A program made the translations under genes and the position numbers. Under the pieces are notes generated by a model. The model was not told where the DNA came from. It worked only from the letters and a program-made list of their open reading frames with translations, and ran no database searches. This document shows, piece by piece, positions 17,111 through 35,209 of a stretch of 64,000 bases of DNA. Position 1 is the stretch's first letter. Each line of letters begins with the position of its first letter. The DNA lies in the NCBI GenBank assembly GCA_026126105.1, contig JAHCJV010000005.1, positions 46,418 through 110,417 of the forward strand, in the 5' to 3' direction. This DNA is from Enhydrobacter sp. (GTDB lineage: Bacteria; Pseudomonadota; Alphaproteobacteria; Reyranellales; Reyranellaceae).

Positions 17111-17643
17111 CCGGCCTGGTCGCTGTGCAGCGATGCGCCGGGCTGCTGCTCGCCCTCGGCTTGCTGGGCGCCTGCGCCCGCCCGCCACAGATTCCGCCGG
17201 AGAGCGGGGCGCCGGCACTCCACCTGGAGGAGTTCTTCGTCGGCAGCAGCAGCGGTGAAGGTGTCTTCACCAACGGATTCACCGGCGAAAGGCGCGAGTT
17301 CCGGGTCGCGATCGTAGGGTCGCTCACTGGCGACGAACTGACGCTCGTCGAGGATTTCACCTATGCCGACGGCGAGCAGGATCGGAAGACCTGGCGGCTC
17401 CAGCGCACGGGACCGGGCCGCTACAGCGGCACCCGGGAGGACGTCGAGGGCCTCGCCCGGGCGTGGACCGAGAACGGCCAGGTGAGGCTGGAGTACACGG
17501 TGAAGCTCGCGGGCTGGCGATTGGACTTCGCCGATGTACTGGCGCTGCGTGCCGACGGGACACTTCTCAATCGAGCGATCATCAGCAAGTGGGGCGTGAG
17601 GGTCGGACGGGTCGAGCTGGTGCTGCGCAAGCCGGCGGCCTGA
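17107..17643 (+). CDS. DUF3833-family lipoprotein
   Basis: Lipobox LLGAC, LEEFFVG, LVEDFTYADGEQDRKTW, LLNRAIISKWGVRVG. Confidence 0.8.
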   Translation: MTGLVAVQRCAGLLLALGLLGACARPPQIPPESGAPALHLEEFFVGSSSGEGVFTNGFTGERREFRVAIVGSLTGDELTLVEDFTYADGEQDRKTWRLQRTGPGRYSGTREDVEGLARAWTENGQVRLEYTVKLAGWRLDFADVLALRADGTLLNRAIISKWGVRVGRVELVLRKPAA

Positions 17644-17651
17644 TCGTCACC

Positions 17652-18500
17652 TTACAGAGCGACCCTCGCGGTCGGCAGCGCAAGCCCCGCAACGCCCACG
17701 CGGGTATGGAAGATGCTGCCGCAATTCTCGTGCGGCCCGCCGCGTGAGCCGGTGACGATGTAGAGATCACGCAGGTCGTCGCCGGCGAAGCAAAGGCTGG
17801 TGACCATCGGCAGAGGCACGGCAACATCCTGGCGGTGCGTGCCGTCCGCGTTGAACACGGCCACCCGTCCGCCATGGGCGTCGGCCACCCAGACCGAGCC
17901 GTCCTGCGCCACCTTCAGCCCGTCGGGCACGCGATCCTCTCCAAGCGCGGCGAACCTGCGCCACGGGCCGACGCTGCCGTCCGGTTTCGCGTCGTACACG
18001 CGCACGTACGGCCCGCGCGCGTCGCAGTGATAGAGAAGCTTACCGTCGGGCGAGAAGCCTAGGCCGTTGGTGAGCAGCACGCCGTCAGACAGCGTGCGCA
18101 TCGAACCGTCGAGGTCGATGACGTGAAGATGGCCAGGCCTTGGCGTCTCGCCGCCGAACACCTTGAATGCCAGCGAACCGACATAGATGCGCCCGGTCGC
18201 ATCTGTCGTGAGGTCGTTGAAGCCGGTGGCACCAGGAATCGCGTCGAGCGACAGCAGCGACTTCGTCCCGCCGTCGTCCAGGGACACGTAAGCAATGTCG
18301 CGCCCCCCGACAACGATACCGCCCGACTCGTGCAACGCCATGCCGCCGATGCCGCGACGTCTAGGGACCGCTGTCGAGACCTTACCGGCGCGATCGAGCA
18401 GGAAGACGCCGCCATTCAGCACGTCGCTAAAATAGAGCCCGCGTTGCGGATGCCAGACTGGCCCCTCAATCAGACCGTAGCCGGTGGCGACTTGCTGCAT
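17652..18500 (-). CDS. SMP-30/gluconolactonase/LRE family protein
   Basis: LIEGPVW, FNDLTTD, TNGLGFSPDG, PDGLKV. Confidence 0.9.
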   Translation of the reverse strand: MQQVATGYGLIEGPVWHPQRGLYFSDVLNGGVFLLDRAGKVSTAVPRRRGIGGMALHESGGIVVGGRDIAYVSLDDGGTKSLLSLDAIPGATGFNDLTTDATGRIYVGSLAFKVFGGETPRPGHLHVIDLDGSMRTLSDGVLLTNGLGFSPDGKLLYHCDARGPYVRVYDAKPDGSVGPWRRFAALGEDRVPDGLKVAQDGSVWVADAHGGRVAVFNADGTHRQDVAVPLPMVTSLCFAGDDLRDLYIVTGSRGGPHENCGSIFHTRVGVAGLALPTARVAL

Positions 18501-18510
18501 GACCCCTCCC

Positions 18511-19260
18511 TTAATGTGCGGCGAGCGGCGAGGTGGCGTCGGCCCCGAAATAGGCATGCTCCAAACGATTCGCGAGATCGCCCTCACTGGCGCGGGCTTC
18601 GAGGACGATCGTGCCACGCGCCAAGGCGTAAACGCGATCGACAACGGCGACTGCCTTCTCGATCAGCTGCTCGACCAGCAACACCGCGGTGCCCGCCTCG
18701 CGCAGCCGGACGACGGCAGCGAGCACGCGGTCGACTAGCACCGGTGATAGGCCGGCCGACGGCTCGTCGAGCATCAGCAGCCGCGGCCGGGCAACGAGAC
18801 CCTGGGCGACGGCCAGCATCTGCTGCTGGCCGCCCGACAGGGTGACCGCGCGGTCGTTGCGCTTGGCGGCGATCTCGGGAAAGAACGTCAACGCCTCCTC
18901 GACCTGCGTCACGCGAACGTCACGCGGCAGGCCGTAGCCCGCCAGCAGGAGATTGTCGAAGACGCTGAGCTGCGTGAACACGCGATGGCCTTCGACGACA
19001 TGGACAAGTCCCGCGCGCACCGTCTCGCGCGGGCTGGCGGTGGAGATATCCTGCCCGGCGAAGCGCACCTGCCCGGTGCGCGGCAGAAGGCCGGACAGGG
19101 CACGCAGCAAGGTCGTCTTGCCCGCGCCGTTAGGGCCCAGCAGTGCCACGGCTTCGCCCGCGCCGATCGTGAGCGCGATGTCGCGCAGGACGACGATCTT
19201 GCCGTAGCCGGCCGTCAGGCCGCTGACCTGAAGGAGAGGCTCAGGCGCCGAGATAGGCAC
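18511..19260 (-). CDS. Branched-chain-type ABC transporter ATP-binding protein (LivF-like)
   Basis: GPNGAGKTT, LSGGQQQM, MLDEPSAGL, LLVEQ. Confidence 0.92.
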   Translation of the reverse strand: MPISAPEPLLQVSGLTAGYGKIVVLRDIALTIGAGEAVALLGPNGAGKTTLLRALSGLLPRTGQVRFAGQDISTASPRETVRAGLVHVVEGHRVFTQLSVFDNLLLAGYGLPRDVRVTQVEEALTFFPEIAAKRNDRAVTLSGGQQQMLAVAQGLVARPRLLMLDEPSAGLSPVLVDRVLAAVVRLREAGTAVLLVEQLIEKAVAVVDRVYALARGTIVLEARASEGDLANRLEHAYFGADATSPLAAH

Positions 19261-31353: not shown

Positions 31354-31572
31354 ATGAAAGTCCTGATCGAATATTGCGGCGCCTGAGGCTACAAGCCGCA
31401 AGCCCTCCGTGTGAGGGAACGCCTTGAGAAGATGGGTGCGACCGACTTCGAGTTGCGCCCCGGTAGATCCGGCCAGTTCGACGTCACCGTCGACGGCGCC
31501 CTCAAATACACCCGCAGCAAGACCGGCCGCTTCCCGACCGATGCCGAGATCGACGATCTCATGCCCGATTGA
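31354..31572 (+). CDS. SelW/SelT/SelH (Rdx-family) selenoprotein; UGA at 31384-31386 read as Sec
   Basis: MKVLIEYCGA(UGA)GYKPQALRVRERLEKMGATDFELRPGRSGQFDVTVDGALKYTRSKTGRFPTDAEIDDLMPD; CxxU motif, GxFxV, GRFP; RBS GAGGG; SECIS-like hairpin. Confidence 0.85.
31399..31426 (+). promoter_or_regulatory. Putative bacterial SECIS element
   Basis: CCCTC-CGTGT-GAGGG hairpin (31403-31417), loop begins 21 nt after the UGA and contains GU; outer CAAG/CTTG pairing. Confidence 0.6.
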
Positions 31573-32562: not shown

Positions 32563-32639
32563 CGTTCCCCCTGCCATTCGCCAACTACATATCATCGTAC
32601 CAAGGGGCAACGCGGCGCGCGACCCCGCGTTGACCGCCC

Positions 32640-33890
32640 ATGCAATTCCGCGACGCAATCGAGAAGGATGCCGAGGACCTGCGCACGCTGGCCGATTGGG
32701 CGGTGGCGGCCTCTGGATATCGTGAATTCGTGCCTCGTCCCATCGTGAGCGGTAACGATTGGCGAACCCAGGAATGGCAGCTTGATGCCGCCGCGATGAC
32801 GCTGCGTCGCACCTGGTTGGGTGTGGCGCATCGGTCGGGCGATTCAACGCTGAAAAGCCCGCGCGCCGGGCACATCGCCCATGTCGCCTGCGGCTCCCGC
32901 GTGACCTTCGGCTACGAGCGCGACATCGACGCCTCCCTGCTCGAGCAGCGCATGGGATACCTGCGCGTGCCGGCCGGCTGCTCGTCGGACCTCGTGCTGT
33001 TCCGCAGCGGACAGGCAGCCCTCGCCTGCCTCGTCCACTTCGCCGTCTCGCAGTGGGGGAAAGCCGATCCCCTCACCGTCGCGCATGCCGGCGCCTATTT
33101 CGAGACGGCAGCGCTGCTCTCGTCCTGGCCTGAGCGTCTGGTCAGGCAACTCGACGACGCTGGAGAGGCGGACATCGTCATCGCCGAACCGGTGTGGTGC
33201 GATGGACAGTTCGGATGCGGGCAGCGCCTGCCTAAGGCCCGCCGCGCGCTGATCCTGGATATCACCATGTCCGGACCGGCATACGATCTTGCGCCATACC
33301 TCGATGACTGCCCGTTGGTGATCGCCTACAGCTCCGGACTGAAGCTCGACCAAGCGGGCCTCGAGCTCGCCAATGCCGGCATCGTCCGCGTGCTGGCGCG
33401 CGAAGGCACGCAGGAGGTGGGAGCGGCGTTGCGCAAGCTGCGCGGGCTGACCGGGGGCGGCCTCACGCTCGACGAGCTGTCGGCCCTCTCCGCGCCGTGG
33501 TTCATGGATCGCGCTTATGCCGAGCGCTACACCGCGGCGATCTTCGCCAACAATCGCGCGCTCGCCGCGGCGATCGGCTCACAGTCCGCCGTCTTCGGCG
33601 CGCGCTGCCATCCGTCGCTCCTCGATCCCGCGGCAGAGGCTCCGTTCTGCGCGCTGACGCTCAACGAGCCCTCGGCCGAAGGATATCGGGCGCTCGAAGC
33701 GAAGATCGCCAGGGAGTGCGCGCGTCGGGGACTGCTCGCCGTCAAAGGCGGTTCGTTCGGCTTTCGCGGCCACCGCTTCGAGCTGATCGAGCCGGAAGGC
33801 GGTCGGTCCTTCCTGCGCGTGGCAATGGGCTGGCGCGACGGCTGGAGCCGGCAAGGCCTATGCGAGCTGTTTGCCGAGCTCGCCGCCTGA
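32640..33890 (+). CDS. Hypothetical protein; divergent fold-type I PLP-dependent enzyme (Cys/Met-metabolism-like)
   Basis: YER..FRSGQAAL..YFET..IAEP..ILDIT..YSSGLKL mirrors the YxR / FxSGMAA / Y / E / DxT / SxxK order of cystathionine gamma-lyase-type enzymes. Confidence 0.55.
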   Translation: MQFRDAIEKDAEDLRTLADWAVAASGYREFVPRPIVSGNDWRTQEWQLDAAAMTLRRTWLGVAHRSGDSTLKSPRAGHIAHVACGSRVTFGYERDIDASLLEQRMGYLRVPAGCSSDLVLFRSGQAALACLVHFAVSQWGKADPLTVAHAGAYFETAALLSSWPERLVRQLDDAGEADIVIAEPVWCDGQFGCGQRLPKARRALILDITMSGPAYDLAPYLDDCPLVIAYSSGLKLDQAGLELANAGIVRVLAREGTQEVGAALRKLRGLTGGGLTLDELSALSAPWFMDRAYAERYTAAIFANNRALAAAIGSQSAVFGARCHPSLLDPAAEAPFCALTLNEPSAEGYRALEAKIARECARRGLLAVKGGSFGFRGHRFELIEPEGGRSFLRVAMGWRDGWSRQGLCELFAELAA

Positions 33891-34765: not shown

Positions 34766-34791
34766 GCAACCGGTCTGTCGCGACCCACGTT
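34766..34791 (+). promoter_or_regulatory. Possible EcfG-type promoter for the HPF-like gene
   Basis: GCAAC-N17-CGTT (one mismatch to GGAAC), 34 nt upstream of ATG 34826. Confidence 0.45.
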
Positions 34792-34825: not shown

Positions 34826-35209
34826 ATGGAAACACCCCTGAAAATCAGCTTCCAGGGAGGCGATGCCAGCGAAGCTCTCAGCGGTCTCATCAGCGAGAAT
34901 GTCGACGCTCTCGAGAAGCTGCACGGCCGAATGACGGCTTGCCACGTGGTCGTACAAGTCCCGGACGGCCATCACCGTGCGCATCAGTTCAGCGTCAAGA
35001 TCCATCTCGCGCTGCCGGGCGGCATAGATGTCAATGTCGACCATGCGCCACAGGGCGACAATCACTTCGCCGACGCTCAGGCTGCGGTGCACGATGCTTT
35101 CCGCCGCGCCAAGCGCGTGCTCAGGGATCGTGCCCGCAAGCAGCGCGGCGAGGTGAAGACGCTGCATGAGCGCATCGAACGAACCATCGACCAGCCGCCC
35201 GATGCCTAG
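34826..35209 (+). CDS. HPF/RaiA-family ribosome-associated protein
   Basis: PLKISF..LEKLHGRMTACHVVV..FSVKIHLALPG..AVHDAFRRAKRVL. Confidence 0.8.
   Translation: METPLKISFQGGDASEALSGLISENVDALEKLHGRMTACHVVVQVPDGHHRAHQFSVKIHLALPGGIDVNVDHAPQGDNHFADAQAAVHDAFRRAKRVLRDRARKQRGEVKTLHERIERTIDQPPDA

What the first reader, a model, noticed from the sequence alone, without database searches (positions are those of the whole stretch)
32640..33890. Highly divergent stand-alone PLP enzyme of the Cys/Met (gamma-lyase/synthase) fold
This 416-aa ORF has no obvious annotation but keeps the ordered motif skeleton of fold-type I trans-sulfuration enzymes: YER, FRSGQAA, aromatic YFET, E, ILDIT (Asp contacting the pyridine N) and YSSGLKL (candidate Schiff-base Lys). 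It also has an unusual GGSFGFRGHR C-terminal motif. It converges on a DecR-like (cysteine-responsive in E. coli) regulator. It could catalyse an undescribed beta/gamma-elimination or replacement, possibly on S- or Se-amino acids, given the selenoprotein gene ~1 kb away (speculative).
Basis: inference. Interest (0 to 1): 0.55.

Follow-up and report, generated by a model that had tools for sequence, protein, structure and literature searches.

The report
Unannotated stress-controlled PLP enzyme family
This gene encodes a conserved but unannotated vitamin-B6 (PLP) enzyme, a distant cousin of the cystathionine/methionine lyase-synthase family, that in Alphaproteobacteria sits behind a general-stress-response promoter; its substrate is still unknown.

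Summary
It has no Pfam, NCBIfam or PDB sequence match. Public relatives that carry a name (about 700 sequences, 306 clusters at 50% identity) are all called hypothetical protein.

A high-confidence AlphaFold model (pLDDT 95.6) is fold-type I. Its 13 best structural neighbours are all Cys/Met-metabolism PLP enzymes (Z 22-26); the next family scores Z 19. Profile-profile alignment (95.5%, E 1.4e-8) places K235 on the Schiff-base lysine, D207 on the pyridine-N aspartate, Y153 on the stacking tyrosine and Y92/R94 on the YxR phosphate clamp. So the fold and PLP interpretation is supported.

The DecR and selenium links are not supported. The regulator is a generic Lrp/AsnC protein. Both adjacencies were seen only in the one Reyranellaceae lineage that is syntenic over the whole region.

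Two results are new:
- A conserved EcfG-type promoter (GCAAC-N16-CGTT) ends 8 nt before the ATG. It recurs upstream of orthologues in several alphaproteobacterial families with different neighbours, which suggests a leaderless general-stress-response gene.
- Basal relatives lie in a cassette with a LysA-like decarboxylase, ABC exporters and an arginase-family gene.

The substrate remains unknown. I rate it a new variant of a known kind, of moderate interest.

The parts
32640..33890 (+). Coding sequence of the 416-aa PLP-enzyme homologue (P0001), stop codon included
   Evidence: 695 homologues and 306 clusters at 50% identity. AF2 pLDDT 95.6.
32607..32631 (+). EcfG-type (general stress sigma) promoter-like element, GCAAC-N16-CGTT, ending 8 nt before the ATG. 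This implies a leaderless or near-leaderless mRNA.
   Evidence: Sequence. Only the two boxes are conserved in 9 orthologous upstream regions. The strict motif lies upstream of the homologue in 44 of 82 loci, against a background of 0.01-0.03 per 470 nt. The consensus, GCAAC variants and short distances to the CDS are given in PMC6599016.
32640..32843 (+). N-terminal extension of two long helices (residues 1-68) that carries the family-invariant R56
   Evidence: Secondary structure. R56 is kept in 77 of 77. Canonical enzymes mostly align from about residue 20 or from about residue 83 onward.
32907..32924 (+). FGYERD: Y92 and R94 are equivalent to the YxR motif. In canonical gamma-family enzymes this motif binds the PLP phosphate of the neighbouring subunit.
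   Evidence: Aligned to YSR by hmmsearch against PDB and by hhalign. Kept in 76 of 77.
33000..33020 (+). FRSGQAA: equivalent to the SSGMAA phosphate-binding turn. Q125 is specific to the crown clade (36 of 36); basal members have Met (40 of 41).
33093..33107 (+). AYFET: Y153 aligns with the Tyr that stacks on the PLP ring. E155 is invariant in this family where canonical enzymes have Gly or Cys.
33258..33260 (+). D207 codon: aligns with the Asp that binds the pyridine N1
   Evidence: Kept in 77 of 77.
33327..33347 (+). YSSGLKL: the S232-x-x-K235 motif. K235 (33342-33344) aligns with the Schiff-base lysine.
   Evidence: hhalign. S232 is kept in 77 of 77 and K235 in 76 of 77.
33747..33776 (+). 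GGSFGFRGHR: a family-specific C-terminal-domain motif (R376 in 76 of 77, R379 in 77 of 77). It lies in the stretch of the chain where I would expect the canonical SLGGxES segment.
   Evidence: Its place in the fold is inferred from the strand order in the model and was not aligned residue by residue.
33810..33842 (+). FLRVAMGWRDG: resembles the canonical RLSVGxE segment. R393 is the candidate alpha-carboxylate binder. It is Arg in all 36 crown-clade members and Lys in 35 of 41 basal members.
   Evidence: The equivalence is inferred from motif resemblance and is not covered by the hhalign match.

Best explanation
The gene encodes an active PLP-dependent enzyme. It belongs to a previously unannotated sister family of the Cys/Met-metabolism (gamma) branch of fold-type I. 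By analogy with that branch, PLP would be held as an internal aldimine on K235. D207 would bind the pyridine N1 and Y153 would stack on the ring. S123/G124 and S232 would hold the phosphate, together with Y92/R94 reaching in from a partner subunit, so the enzyme should be at least a dimer. R393 probably binds the alpha-carboxylate of a free L-amino acid. The most likely chemistry is elimination or replacement of a leaving group at C-beta or C-gamma, either releasing a 2-oxo acid plus ammonia or forming a new C-X bond. The substrate differs from those of the six canonical paralogues in the same genome. The gene is monocistronic. In Alphaproteobacteria it is probably transcribed as a leaderless mRNA from a sigma-EcfG promoter, which makes it a general-stress-response enzyme. 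Candidate roles are removing or converting a harmful amino acid or analogue, or producing a protective product such as H2S. Shown here: the ORF, its conservation, the fold, the alignment of catalytic residues, the conserved promoter motif, and the PhyR/ECF-sigma locus in the genome. Inferred: PLP binding, oligomeric state, reaction class, EcfG dependence and physiological role.
For: - Fold: AF2 with 77 homologues gives pLDDT 95.6 and pTM 0.93. VIA-align against 48,161 PDB representatives puts 13 Cys/Met-family chains first (Z 22.1-26.0, 278-318 residues aligned), followed by a step down to Z 19.4 for other fold-type I families. Foldseek top hits are MGL, CGS and CBL at E 1e-12 to 1e-11. The first, weaker model gave the same result.
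- Sequence: hhalign of the family profile against the genome's six canonical PF01053 proteins gives Prob 95.5%, E 1.4e-8 over 252 columns, and matches YxR, SGM, the stacking Tyr, the ETP Glu, the Asp and SxxK. hmmsearch against PDB finds only Cys/Met enzymes among its best 20 rows (best E 1.2e-4). Ten of 77 relatives give weak PF01053 hits. The nearest named ESM Atlas clusters are PF01053.
- Catalytic residues are nearly invariant.
- Distinctness: the family is monophyletic (SH-aLRT 100) on a long branch away from the canonical paralogues. It is single-copy in this genome alongside six canonical genes.
- Stand-alone status: no gene neighbour is conserved beyond family level.
- Promoter: GCAAC-N16-CGTT ends 8 nt before the ATG, and no Shine-Dalgarno-like purine run lies in the 15 nt before the ATG (my reading of the sequence). 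The two boxes are conserved while the spacer varies. The strict motif occurs upstream of the homologue in 44 of 82 loci. These include two different Reyranella gene contexts, Dongiaceae, Desertibaculum, Micropepsaceae-type loci and one Hyphomonadaceae locus. Background is 0.011 per 470 nt in this genome.
- The motif matches the published EcfG consensus, including GCAAC variants and distances of 2-10 nt to the CDS (PMC6599016).
- PhyR (NF006623, 299.6 bits against a cut-off of 240) and adjacent ECF-sigma-like ORFs are present in the genome.
Against: - No experiment exists. PLP binding and activity are inferred from alignment and a predicted structure.
- The protein fails the Pfam and NCBIfam family models, so reaction class cannot be transferred with confidence. 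Fold-type I enzymes with this scaffold also do transamination, decarboxylation, aldol and Claisen chemistry.
- The Asn of the canonical ETPxNP motif appears to be replaced (Cys in the crown clade, Tyr in basal members), and the canonical SLGGxES segment is replaced by GGSFGFRGHR, so the substrate pocket is different.
- The C-terminal Arg equivalence (R393) is not covered by the profile alignment.
- The promoter assignment is a motif match. About half of the loci, including most non-Reyranella crown members such as Methylocystis and Pedomonas, lack the strict motif.
- The genome-wide frequency of the strict motif is close to the shuffled expectation, so only the cross-species positional conservation carries weight.
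- No homologue was found in a published EcfG regulon: in the one regulon paper read, the words pyridoxal, PLP and cystathionine do not occur.
Confidence: 0.6

Rival explanations
1. It is just a very divergent isozyme of a canonical trans-sulfuration or methionine enzyme (cystathionine gamma-synthase, beta- or gamma-lyase, methionine gamma-lyase, O-acylhomoserine sulfhydrylase). On this reading it acts on S- or Se-amino acids.
For: The closest structures are all such enzymes. The catalytic residues align. The crown clade keeps Arg at the presumed alpha-carboxylate site, as free-amino-acid enzymes do. H2S production from cysteine by such enzymes is a known stress defence (my own knowledge), which would fit an EcfG promoter.
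Against: The genome already has six full-length PF01053 genes. The protein misses every Pfam and NCBIfam model, even at E<=10. A long separate branch has its own invariant set: R56, E155, Q238, N305, R376 and R379. Among the neighbours that were annotated, the only sulfur- or selenium-related genes were MsrA (L060), a DsbA-like gene and the SelW-like ORF. Basal relatives pair with decarboxylase and arginase genes. The selenoprotein and Lrp adjacencies were seen only in one lineage.
Confidence: 0.15
2. It is a gamma-replacement (aminocarboxypropyl-transfer type) enzyme that forms a C-N or C-C bond on an amine, guanidino or peptide-bound nucleophile, as in LolC, CndF or Fub7. It would be a descendant of the enzyme in the basal decarboxylase/arginase/ABC cassette.
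For: Basal family members are translationally coupled or adjacent to a LysA/NspC-like decarboxylase in Microbacterium, Vulcanimicrobiota, Magnetococcales and three metagenome contigs. They are often followed by ABC exporters and an agmatinase-like gene. The invariant E155 sits two residues after the stacking Tyr, where canonical enzymes have Gly or Cys, and could favour a cationic group (inference). CndF is among the structural neighbours (Z 23.1).
Against: The window protein's clade has lost the cassette. The own genome has only two weakly similar ODC-fold genes (28-29% identity), and none of the crown loci held a decarboxylase match within the flanks fetched. The crown clade differs from the basal members at pocket positions (Q125 vs M, R393 vs K, G371 vs S/A), which suggests a change of function. 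The chemistry of the cassette is itself unknown.
Confidence: 0.12
3. It uses the fold-type I scaffold for different chemistry, such as transamination, racemisation, decarboxylation or an aldol/Claisen-type reaction, rather than beta/gamma elimination or replacement.
For: Aminotransferases, AONS/SPT-type enzymes, kynureninase and others still align at Z 17-19. The substrate-pocket motifs differ from the canonical ones. A divergently transcribed D-2-hydroxyacid dehydrogenase could supply or consume a 2-oxo acid.
Against: The gamma family is clearly the nearest, with a gap of about 2.7 Z units and all 13 top representatives. Gamma-family hallmarks that aminotransferases lack are conserved: the N-terminal YxR, SGM/Q, and the stacking Tyr in a YxxT context. 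The dehydrogenase adjacency is confined to one lineage.
Confidence: 0.1
4. It is a catalytically dead PLP-fold protein, such as a binding or regulatory protein, or not a functional gene.
For: No family model recognises it. No function is known for any member.
Against: Lys, Asp, Tyr and the phosphate-binding residues are nearly invariant across 77 members down to 25% identity. Hundreds of intact full-length homologues exist. The model is high-confidence and compact. The promoter is conserved.
Confidence: 0.03

Closest known systems
Cys/Met-metabolism PLP-dependent enzymes (Pfam PF01053: cystathionine gamma-synthase, beta-lyase and gamma-lyase, methionine gamma-lyase, O-acetyl- and O-succinyl-homoserine sulfhydrylases)
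   Same: Same fold and domain order (Z 22-26 over about 300 residues). Same ordered catalytic skeleton: N-terminal YxR, S-G-(M/Q) turn, stacking Tyr, Glu of the ETP strand, Asp-x-Thr, S-x-x-K lysine, and a C-terminal R-x-(S/A)-x-G segment.
   Different: It is not recognised by PF01053 or by any NCBIfam model, and shares only 12-20% identity with solved structures. It has an extra two-helix N-terminal extension with the invariant R56. E155 replaces Gly/Cys after the stacking Tyr, and Cys/Tyr stands where the ETPxNP Asn is expected. It has the family-specific motifs LKLDQxGLELAN and GGSFGFRGHR. It forms a long separate branch. It has no sulfur-metabolism gene context.
Secondary-metabolism offshoots of the gamma family (CndF, BesB, CalE6; LolC and Fub7 from my own knowledge)
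   Same: These are divergent gamma-family scaffolds recruited for non-canonical substrates. CndF (Z 23.1), CalE6 (top Foldseek hits) and BesB (Foldseek E 3e-11) are among the structural matches. Basal relatives of this family also sit in biosynthetic-looking cassettes.
   Different: As far as I know those enzymes are still classed with PF01053 (not tested here); this family is not recognised by it. The window gene is stand-alone and not in a gene cluster. No product is known.
Sigma-EcfG (PhyR-NepR-EcfG) general stress regulon genes of Alphaproteobacteria
   Same: A GGAAC/GCAAC-N16-17-CGTT element lies immediately upstream of the start, as in published EcfG targets, including ones only 2-10 nt from the CDS. 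A PhyR/ECF-sigma locus is present in the genome. An HPF gene 0.9 kb downstream carries the same motif at 34766.
   Different: In the one regulon paper read (PMC6599016), the words pyridoxal, PLP and cystathionine do not occur. EcfG dependence is untested, and about half of the homologous loci lack the strict motif.

Membership tests
Pfam PF01053 Cys_Met_Meta_PP | Match to the family HMM at or above the gathering score | tested here: not met
   No Pfam family was reported for P0001 even at E<=10. Only 10 of 77 relatives give weak hits, best E 5.8e-4.
Pfam PF01053 Cys_Met_Meta_PP | Fold-type I architecture with the gamma family as nearest structural neighbours | tested here: met
   The model has pLDDT 95.6. 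The top 13 PDB representatives are all Cys/Met family, Z 22.1-26.0, rmsd 3.0-4.6 A, 278-318 residues aligned. The next family scores Z 19.4.
Pfam PF01053 Cys_Met_Meta_PP | Schiff-base lysine in an S-x-x-K motif about 25-30 residues after the PLP-N1 aspartate | tested here: met
   hhalign aligns S232..K235 with S-x-T-K and D207 with the DNT Asp. The spacing is 28 residues. K is kept in 76 of 77 and D in 77 of 77.
Pfam PF01053 Cys_Met_Meta_PP | N-terminal Y-x-R and S-G-M turn that bind the PLP phosphate; Tyr stacking on the ring | tested here: met
   YER aligns with YSR, SGQ/SGM with SGM, and Y153 with the stacking Tyr.
Pfam PF01053 Cys_Met_Meta_PP | C-terminal Arg (RLSVG) that binds the substrate alpha-carboxylate, and Asn of ETPxNP | tested here: inconclusive
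   The C-terminal domain is not covered by the hhalign match. FLR393VAMG resembles RLSVG; position 393 is R in the crown clade and K in most basal members. The position expected for the Asn holds Cys or Tyr.
Pfam PF01053 Cys_Met_Meta_PP | Binds PLP; active as a dimer or tetramer with shared active sites | not testable with these tools
   Needs protein chemistry or a structure.
NCBIfam equivalogs for MetB, MetC, MetZ, MetY, MGL and CGL | Score above the curated cut-off of any model | tested here: not met
   No NCBIfam family at E<=10. Fused or distant relatives give only fragments of about 20 bits against cut-offs of 440-666.
Sigma-EcfG general stress regulon (Alphaproteobacteria) | GGAAC-N16-17-CGTT-type promoter upstream of the gene, conserved in orthologues | tested here: met
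   GCAAC-N16-CGTT lies at 32607-32631. The boxes are conserved and the spacer is free. The strict motif occurs in 44 of 82 loci across several families and contexts, against 0.01-0.03 expected per locus. Consensus from PMC6599016.
Sigma-EcfG general stress regulon (Alphaproteobacteria) | Organism encodes the PhyR/EcfG system | tested here: met
   PhyR model NF006623 scores 299.6 bits (cut-off 240) at C157:15968-16720, with ECF-sigma-like matches at 17707-18168 and 18351-18797. The single NepR Pfam hit lies beside an SDR gene and is doubtful.
Sigma-EcfG general stress regulon (Alphaproteobacteria) | EcfG-dependent, stress-induced transcription from that site | not testable with these tools
   Needs TSS mapping and expression data.
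DecR (YbaO)-type cysteine-responsive Lrp/AsnC regulon | Neighbouring regulator is specifically DecR-like and is linked to the gene across lineages | tested here: not met
   The best NCBIfam hit is generic Lrp at 100 bits against a cut-off of 233, and no DecR model is listed. The gene is convergent. The adjacency occurs only in Reyranellaceae clade a.

The most novel reading that the evidence does not exclude
The whole family may be a new functional class of gamma-type PLP enzymes whose ancestral job is not sulfur chemistry. In the basal cassette (small acidic peptide, LysA/NspC-like decarboxylase, this enzyme, ABC exporters, arginase-family enzyme), the enzyme would attach an amino-acid-bearing side chain to an amine, guanidino or peptide-bound nucleophile. 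That side chain would then be decarboxylated and the product exported. Alphaproteobacteria would later have captured a copy, changed its pocket (Q125, R393, G371) and placed it under sigma-EcfG as a dedicated stress-response enzyme with a still unknown free-amino-acid substrate.
Probability: 0.15. Interest if true: 0.75.

Novelty: new variant of a known kind. Interest (0 to 1): 0.5.

Why it matters
PLP enzymes of the gamma family are a rich source of new C-S, C-N and C-C bond chemistry. This clade has a few hundred sequence clusters and is invisible to Pfam, NCBIfam and RefSeq naming, so genome annotation and metabolic models miss it entirely.

The work here gives it a confident fold, a testable active site (K235, D207, Y153, Y92/R94, R393) and two handles on function. 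One is a conserved general-stress promoter in Alphaproteobacteria. The other is a conserved decarboxylase/arginase/ABC-exporter cassette around its basal relatives. If the stress link holds, it adds an enzyme of amino-acid chemistry to the alphaproteobacterial general stress response, whose effectors are largely uncharacterised. If the cassette makes a new metabolite or modified peptide, that would be a new biosynthetic route.

Cultured hosts exist for follow-up: Reyranella soli, R. aquatilis, Methylocystis parvus, Dongia species and Microbacterium paraoxydans.

Tried and rejected
- Direct sequence searches (Pfam, NCBIfam, phmmer against PDB) gave nothing meaningful for the single protein. A profile of 24 close homologues also gave nothing against PDB; only the 77-member profile reached Cys/Met enzymes.
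- The first AF2 model, built from 24 close homologues, had pLDDT below 50 at the lysine loop. It was replaced by a model built from the diverse alignment.
- Neighbourhood clustering of 82 loci found no partner conserved beyond family level. PhaC/PhaR genes lie nearby in Dongiaceae and Hyphomonadaceae, but the arrangements differ and I did not treat this as functional evidence.
- The D-2-hydroxyacid dehydrogenase, aldo-keto reductase, SelW-like ORF and Lrp/AsnC neighbours were rejected as functional partners. The whole region is syntenic only within one Reyranellaceae clade.
- The N-terminal extensions of fused forms (about 700-1050 aa) are not the decarboxylase (no BLAST similarity) and have no Pfam or NCBIfam match. 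The exceptions are a C-terminal HemK-like methyltransferase in P0224 and Pkinase plus FGE-sulfatase in P0179.
- My impression that a 95-aa ORF in the Microbacterium cassette is a PqqD-like RiPP recognition element got no Pfam support.
- The NepR Pfam hit turned out to lie beside an SDR gene, so it was dropped in favour of the PhyR model.
- Literature searches for the cassette or for gamma-replacement plus decarboxylase pairs found nothing relevant.
- The 8-bp hairpin reading of 32608-32632 was rejected. The stem is not conserved in orthologues, whereas the two promoter boxes are.
Full report
**Observation.** The window has an ATG-initiated ORF at 32640-33890 on the + strand that encodes 416 residues. 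The single sequence has no Pfam or NCBIfam match even at E<=10 and no meaningful PDB sequence match. It is nevertheless a real, conserved gene. A word-indexed search found 695 homologues, all unnamed or called 'hypothetical protein'. An exhaustive phmmer search of 1.84 billion cluster representatives found 306 clusters at E<=1e-3. RefSeq and UniRef members in Reyranella soli, Methylocystis parvus and Microbacterium paraoxydans are named 'hypothetical protein'. The N-terminus is conserved among close homologues, which supports the annotated start.

**Fold.** AlphaFold2 with 24 close homologues gave pLDDT 81 and a poorly defined lysine loop. With 77 diverse homologues it gave pLDDT 95.6, pTM 0.93 and no segment below 50.
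- Foldseek against PDB returns methionine gamma-lyase, cystathionine gamma-synthase, and beta- and gamma-lyases at E 1e-12 to 1e-11 (first model).
- An independent all-against-representatives structural search puts 13 Cys/Met-metabolism chains first (Z 22.1-26.0, rmsd 3.0-4.6 A, 278-318 aligned residues).
- It then drops to Z 19.4 for serine palmitoyltransferase/AONS-type enzymes and aminotransferases (first model; re-ranking of Foldseek's list).
- So the protein is fold-type I and the gamma family is its nearest known relative.

**Catalytic skeleton.** A profile of the 77 homologues finds only Cys/Met enzymes among its best 20 rows in PDB (best E 1.2e-4), aligning YER with YSR, the SSGMAA turn and the DxT aspartate. 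The window's genome has six full-length PF01053 genes. hhalign of the family profile against an alignment of those six gives 95.5% probability and E 1.4e-8 over 252 columns. The alignment matches:
- Y92/R94 to the YxR phosphate clamp;
- S123-G124-Q125 to SGM;
- Y153 to the stacking Tyr;
- E183 to the ETP Glu;
- D207 to the PLP-N1 Asp;
- S232..K235 to the SxTK Schiff-base motif.

Across 77 members down to 25% identity, D207, S232, E155, E183, R56, Q238, N305 and R379 are invariant. K235, Y92, R94 and R376 are kept in 76 of 77. An inactive protein is therefore unlikely.

**Why it is not simply a member of PF01053.**
- It fails the Pfam and NCBIfam models. Only 10 of 77 relatives give weak PF01053 hits.
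- In a tree with the six canonical paralogues, the family is monophyletic (SH-aLRT 100) on a long branch.
- It has features of its own:
  - a two-helix N-terminal extension carrying the invariant R56;
  - Glu two residues after the stacking Tyr;
  - Cys/Tyr where the ETPxNP Asn is expected;
  - the motifs LKLDQxGLELAN and GGSFGFRGHR.
- The equivalence of FLR393VAMG with the canonical RLSVG carboxylate-binding segment is my inference from motif resemblance. It lies outside the hhalign match.

**Gene context.** I fetched 80 loci from species-representative genomes. Most are Alphaproteobacteria: Reyranella, Dongia, Methylocystis, Pedomonas, Micropepsaceae, Hyphomonadaceae and Magnetococcales. A few are Gammaproteobacteria, Binatia, Terriglobia, Vulcanimicrobiota and a planctomycete. 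I clustered their neighbours.
- The window's arrangement is aldo-keto reductase, SelW-like ORF, D-2-hydroxyacid dehydrogenase (divergent, 77-bp spacer), the PLP gene, convergent Lrp/AsnC, DUF6356, HPF. It is kept only in one Reyranellaceae clade in which the whole region is syntenic.
- Other Reyranella have the gene next to a 6-phosphogluconate-dehydrogenase-like gene and SDRs.
- Dongiaceae have it after phaC. Hyphomonadaceae have it near phaR and phaC.
- Elsewhere the neighbours include Mn catalase, MsrA, LigD, GNAT, a 2OG oxygenase and others.
- No partner is conserved, so the gene is effectively stand-alone. The regulator is a generic Lrp/AsnC protein (Lrp model 100 bits against a cut-off of 233).

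**A conserved stress promoter.**
- Position: the 77-bp spacer holds GCAAC-N16-CGTT at 32607-32631, ending 8 nt before the ATG. I see no Shine-Dalgarno-like purine run in the 15 nt before the ATG (my reading).
- Conservation pattern: aligning the upstream regions of nine orthologues shows that only the two boxes are conserved while the spacer sequence varies. That is the signature of a promoter rather than of the hairpin that the palindromic AACG/CGTT ends suggest.
- Recurrence: the strict pattern G[GC]AAC-N15-17-CGTT occurs upstream of the homologue in 44 of 82 loci (L001 and L009 are the same place). These include both Reyranella gene contexts (8-10 nt before an in-frame start), one Hyphomonadaceae locus (8 nt), Dongiaceae (9 nt in L041, 32-36 nt in the others), Desertibaculum (36 nt) and Micropepsaceae-type loci (58-87 nt).
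- Near-matches: the R. aquatilis group has GCAGC-N16-CGTT at the same place.
- Background: the rate is 0.011 per 470 nt in this genome and 0.03 in the fetched loci.
- Consensus: the motif is the published sigma-EcfG consensus. That paper lists GCAAC variants and targets only 2-10 nt from the CDS (PMC6599016).
- Regulator: the genome encodes PhyR above the curated cut-off, next to ECF-sigma-like ORFs.
- Neighbour: the same motif precedes the nearby HPF gene (34766).

I therefore read the gene as a probable leaderless member of the general stress regulon. This is a motif-level inference that needs TSS and expression data.

**Deeper relatives.** In the tree the window protein lies in a crown clade (36 of 77 rows, SH-aLRT 100) nested among longer basal members of 460-520 aa. 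Basal members sit in a recurring cassette:
- The usual order is a small ORF (homologous 55-aa acidic peptides in two cases), a LysA/NspC-like fold-type III decarboxylase that often overlaps the start of the PLP gene, and then one or two ABC exporters.
- An agmatinase-like arginase-family gene follows in several cases. In Microbacterium paraoxydans the cassette also has an aKG-HExxH peptide beta-hydroxylase and a GNAT.
- Vulcanimicrobiota and four Magnetococcales loci also have the decarboxylase. In one of them (L081, as in P0179) I confirmed that the PLP domain is fused to a protein kinase and an FGE-sulfatase domain.
- Crown and basal clades differ cleanly at pocket positions: Q125 vs M, R393 vs K, G371 vs S/A.
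- The own genome has no specific decarboxylase partner.

So the family probably began in a biosynthetic or export context, and the alphaproteobacterial crown clade changed function.

**Verdict.** The fold and PLP interpretation is supported by structure prediction and profile alignment. The sulfur, selenium and DecR speculation is not supported, though it is not excluded. The most likely mechanism is PLP-dependent elimination or replacement at C-beta or C-gamma of a free amino acid, by a dimeric or tetrameric enzyme expressed under sigma-EcfG. The substrate is unknown. It is best filed as a new variant (sister family) of the gamma-type fold-type I PLP enzymes, of moderate interest. There is a smaller chance that the family as a whole performs a new kind of gamma-replacement chemistry linked to decarboxylation and export.

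Noticed in passing
L093:4145-13731, L100:849-6475, L101:3456-11032, L095:5787-8488, L102:465-3214, L079:4444-9302, L081:1909-7019: Basal relatives of the family (30-36% identity) sit in a recurring cassette. The order is a small ORF (homologous 55-aa acidic peptides ending in SGN in L093 and L100), a LysA/NspC-like PLP decarboxylase, the PLP enzyme, ABC exporter(s), and an agmatinase-like arginase-family gene. Microbacterium paraoxydans adds an aKG-HExxH peptide beta-hydroxylase and a GNAT. In Magnetococcales (L081, P0179) the PLP enzyme is fused to Pkinase and FGE-sulfatase domains. It looks like an undescribed small-molecule or modified-peptide pathway.
   Followed up: partly
window 31354-31572 (+): A SelW-like (Rdx family) ORF of 72 codons with an in-frame TGA at 31384-31386 inside a CGAU redox motif. 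It is a likely selenoprotein, lying between the aldo-keto reductase and the 2-hydroxyacid dehydrogenase. The syntenic Reyranella locus L001 has a called 53-aa Rdx gene at the same place.
   Followed up: partly
window 34766-34791 (+): A second strict EcfG-type motif (GCAAC-N17-CGTT) lies just upstream of the short HPF/RaiA-like gene (34826-35209). This is consistent with a local pair of general-stress genes.
   Followed up: partly
window 32608-32632: The 8-bp inverted repeat CAACGCGG/CCGCGTTG just before the ATG overlaps the two promoter boxes. In orthologous loci the boxes are kept but the stem is not, so a promoter reading fits better than a hairpin or structured RBS.
   Followed up: yes
L040, L043, L045, L037 (Dongiaceae type); L047, L050, L069 (Hyphomonadaceae): PHA genes lie next to the homologue in two different arrangements: phaC directly upstream in Dongiaceae, and phaR, an alpha/beta hydrolase and phaC downstream in Hyphomonadaceae. 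L037 is labelled Binatia but has the Dongiaceae arrangement, which suggests mis-binning or gene transfer.
   Followed up: no
G000 contig C157:15968-18797: The PhyR gene (NF006623, 299.6 bits) lies beside two ECF-sigma-like ORFs, and a strict EcfG motif lies at 17616 (-). This is the probable general-stress-response control locus of this genome. A weak NepR Pfam hit at 19124-19195 sits next to an SDR gene and is doubtful.
   Followed up: partly
whole genome G000: Of 287 strict EcfG-type motifs, 48 are followed within 4-12 nt by an ORF of at least 70 aa, with a peak at exactly 8 nt (14 cases). This hints that leaderless EcfG-dependent transcripts may be common in this organism.
   Followed up: no
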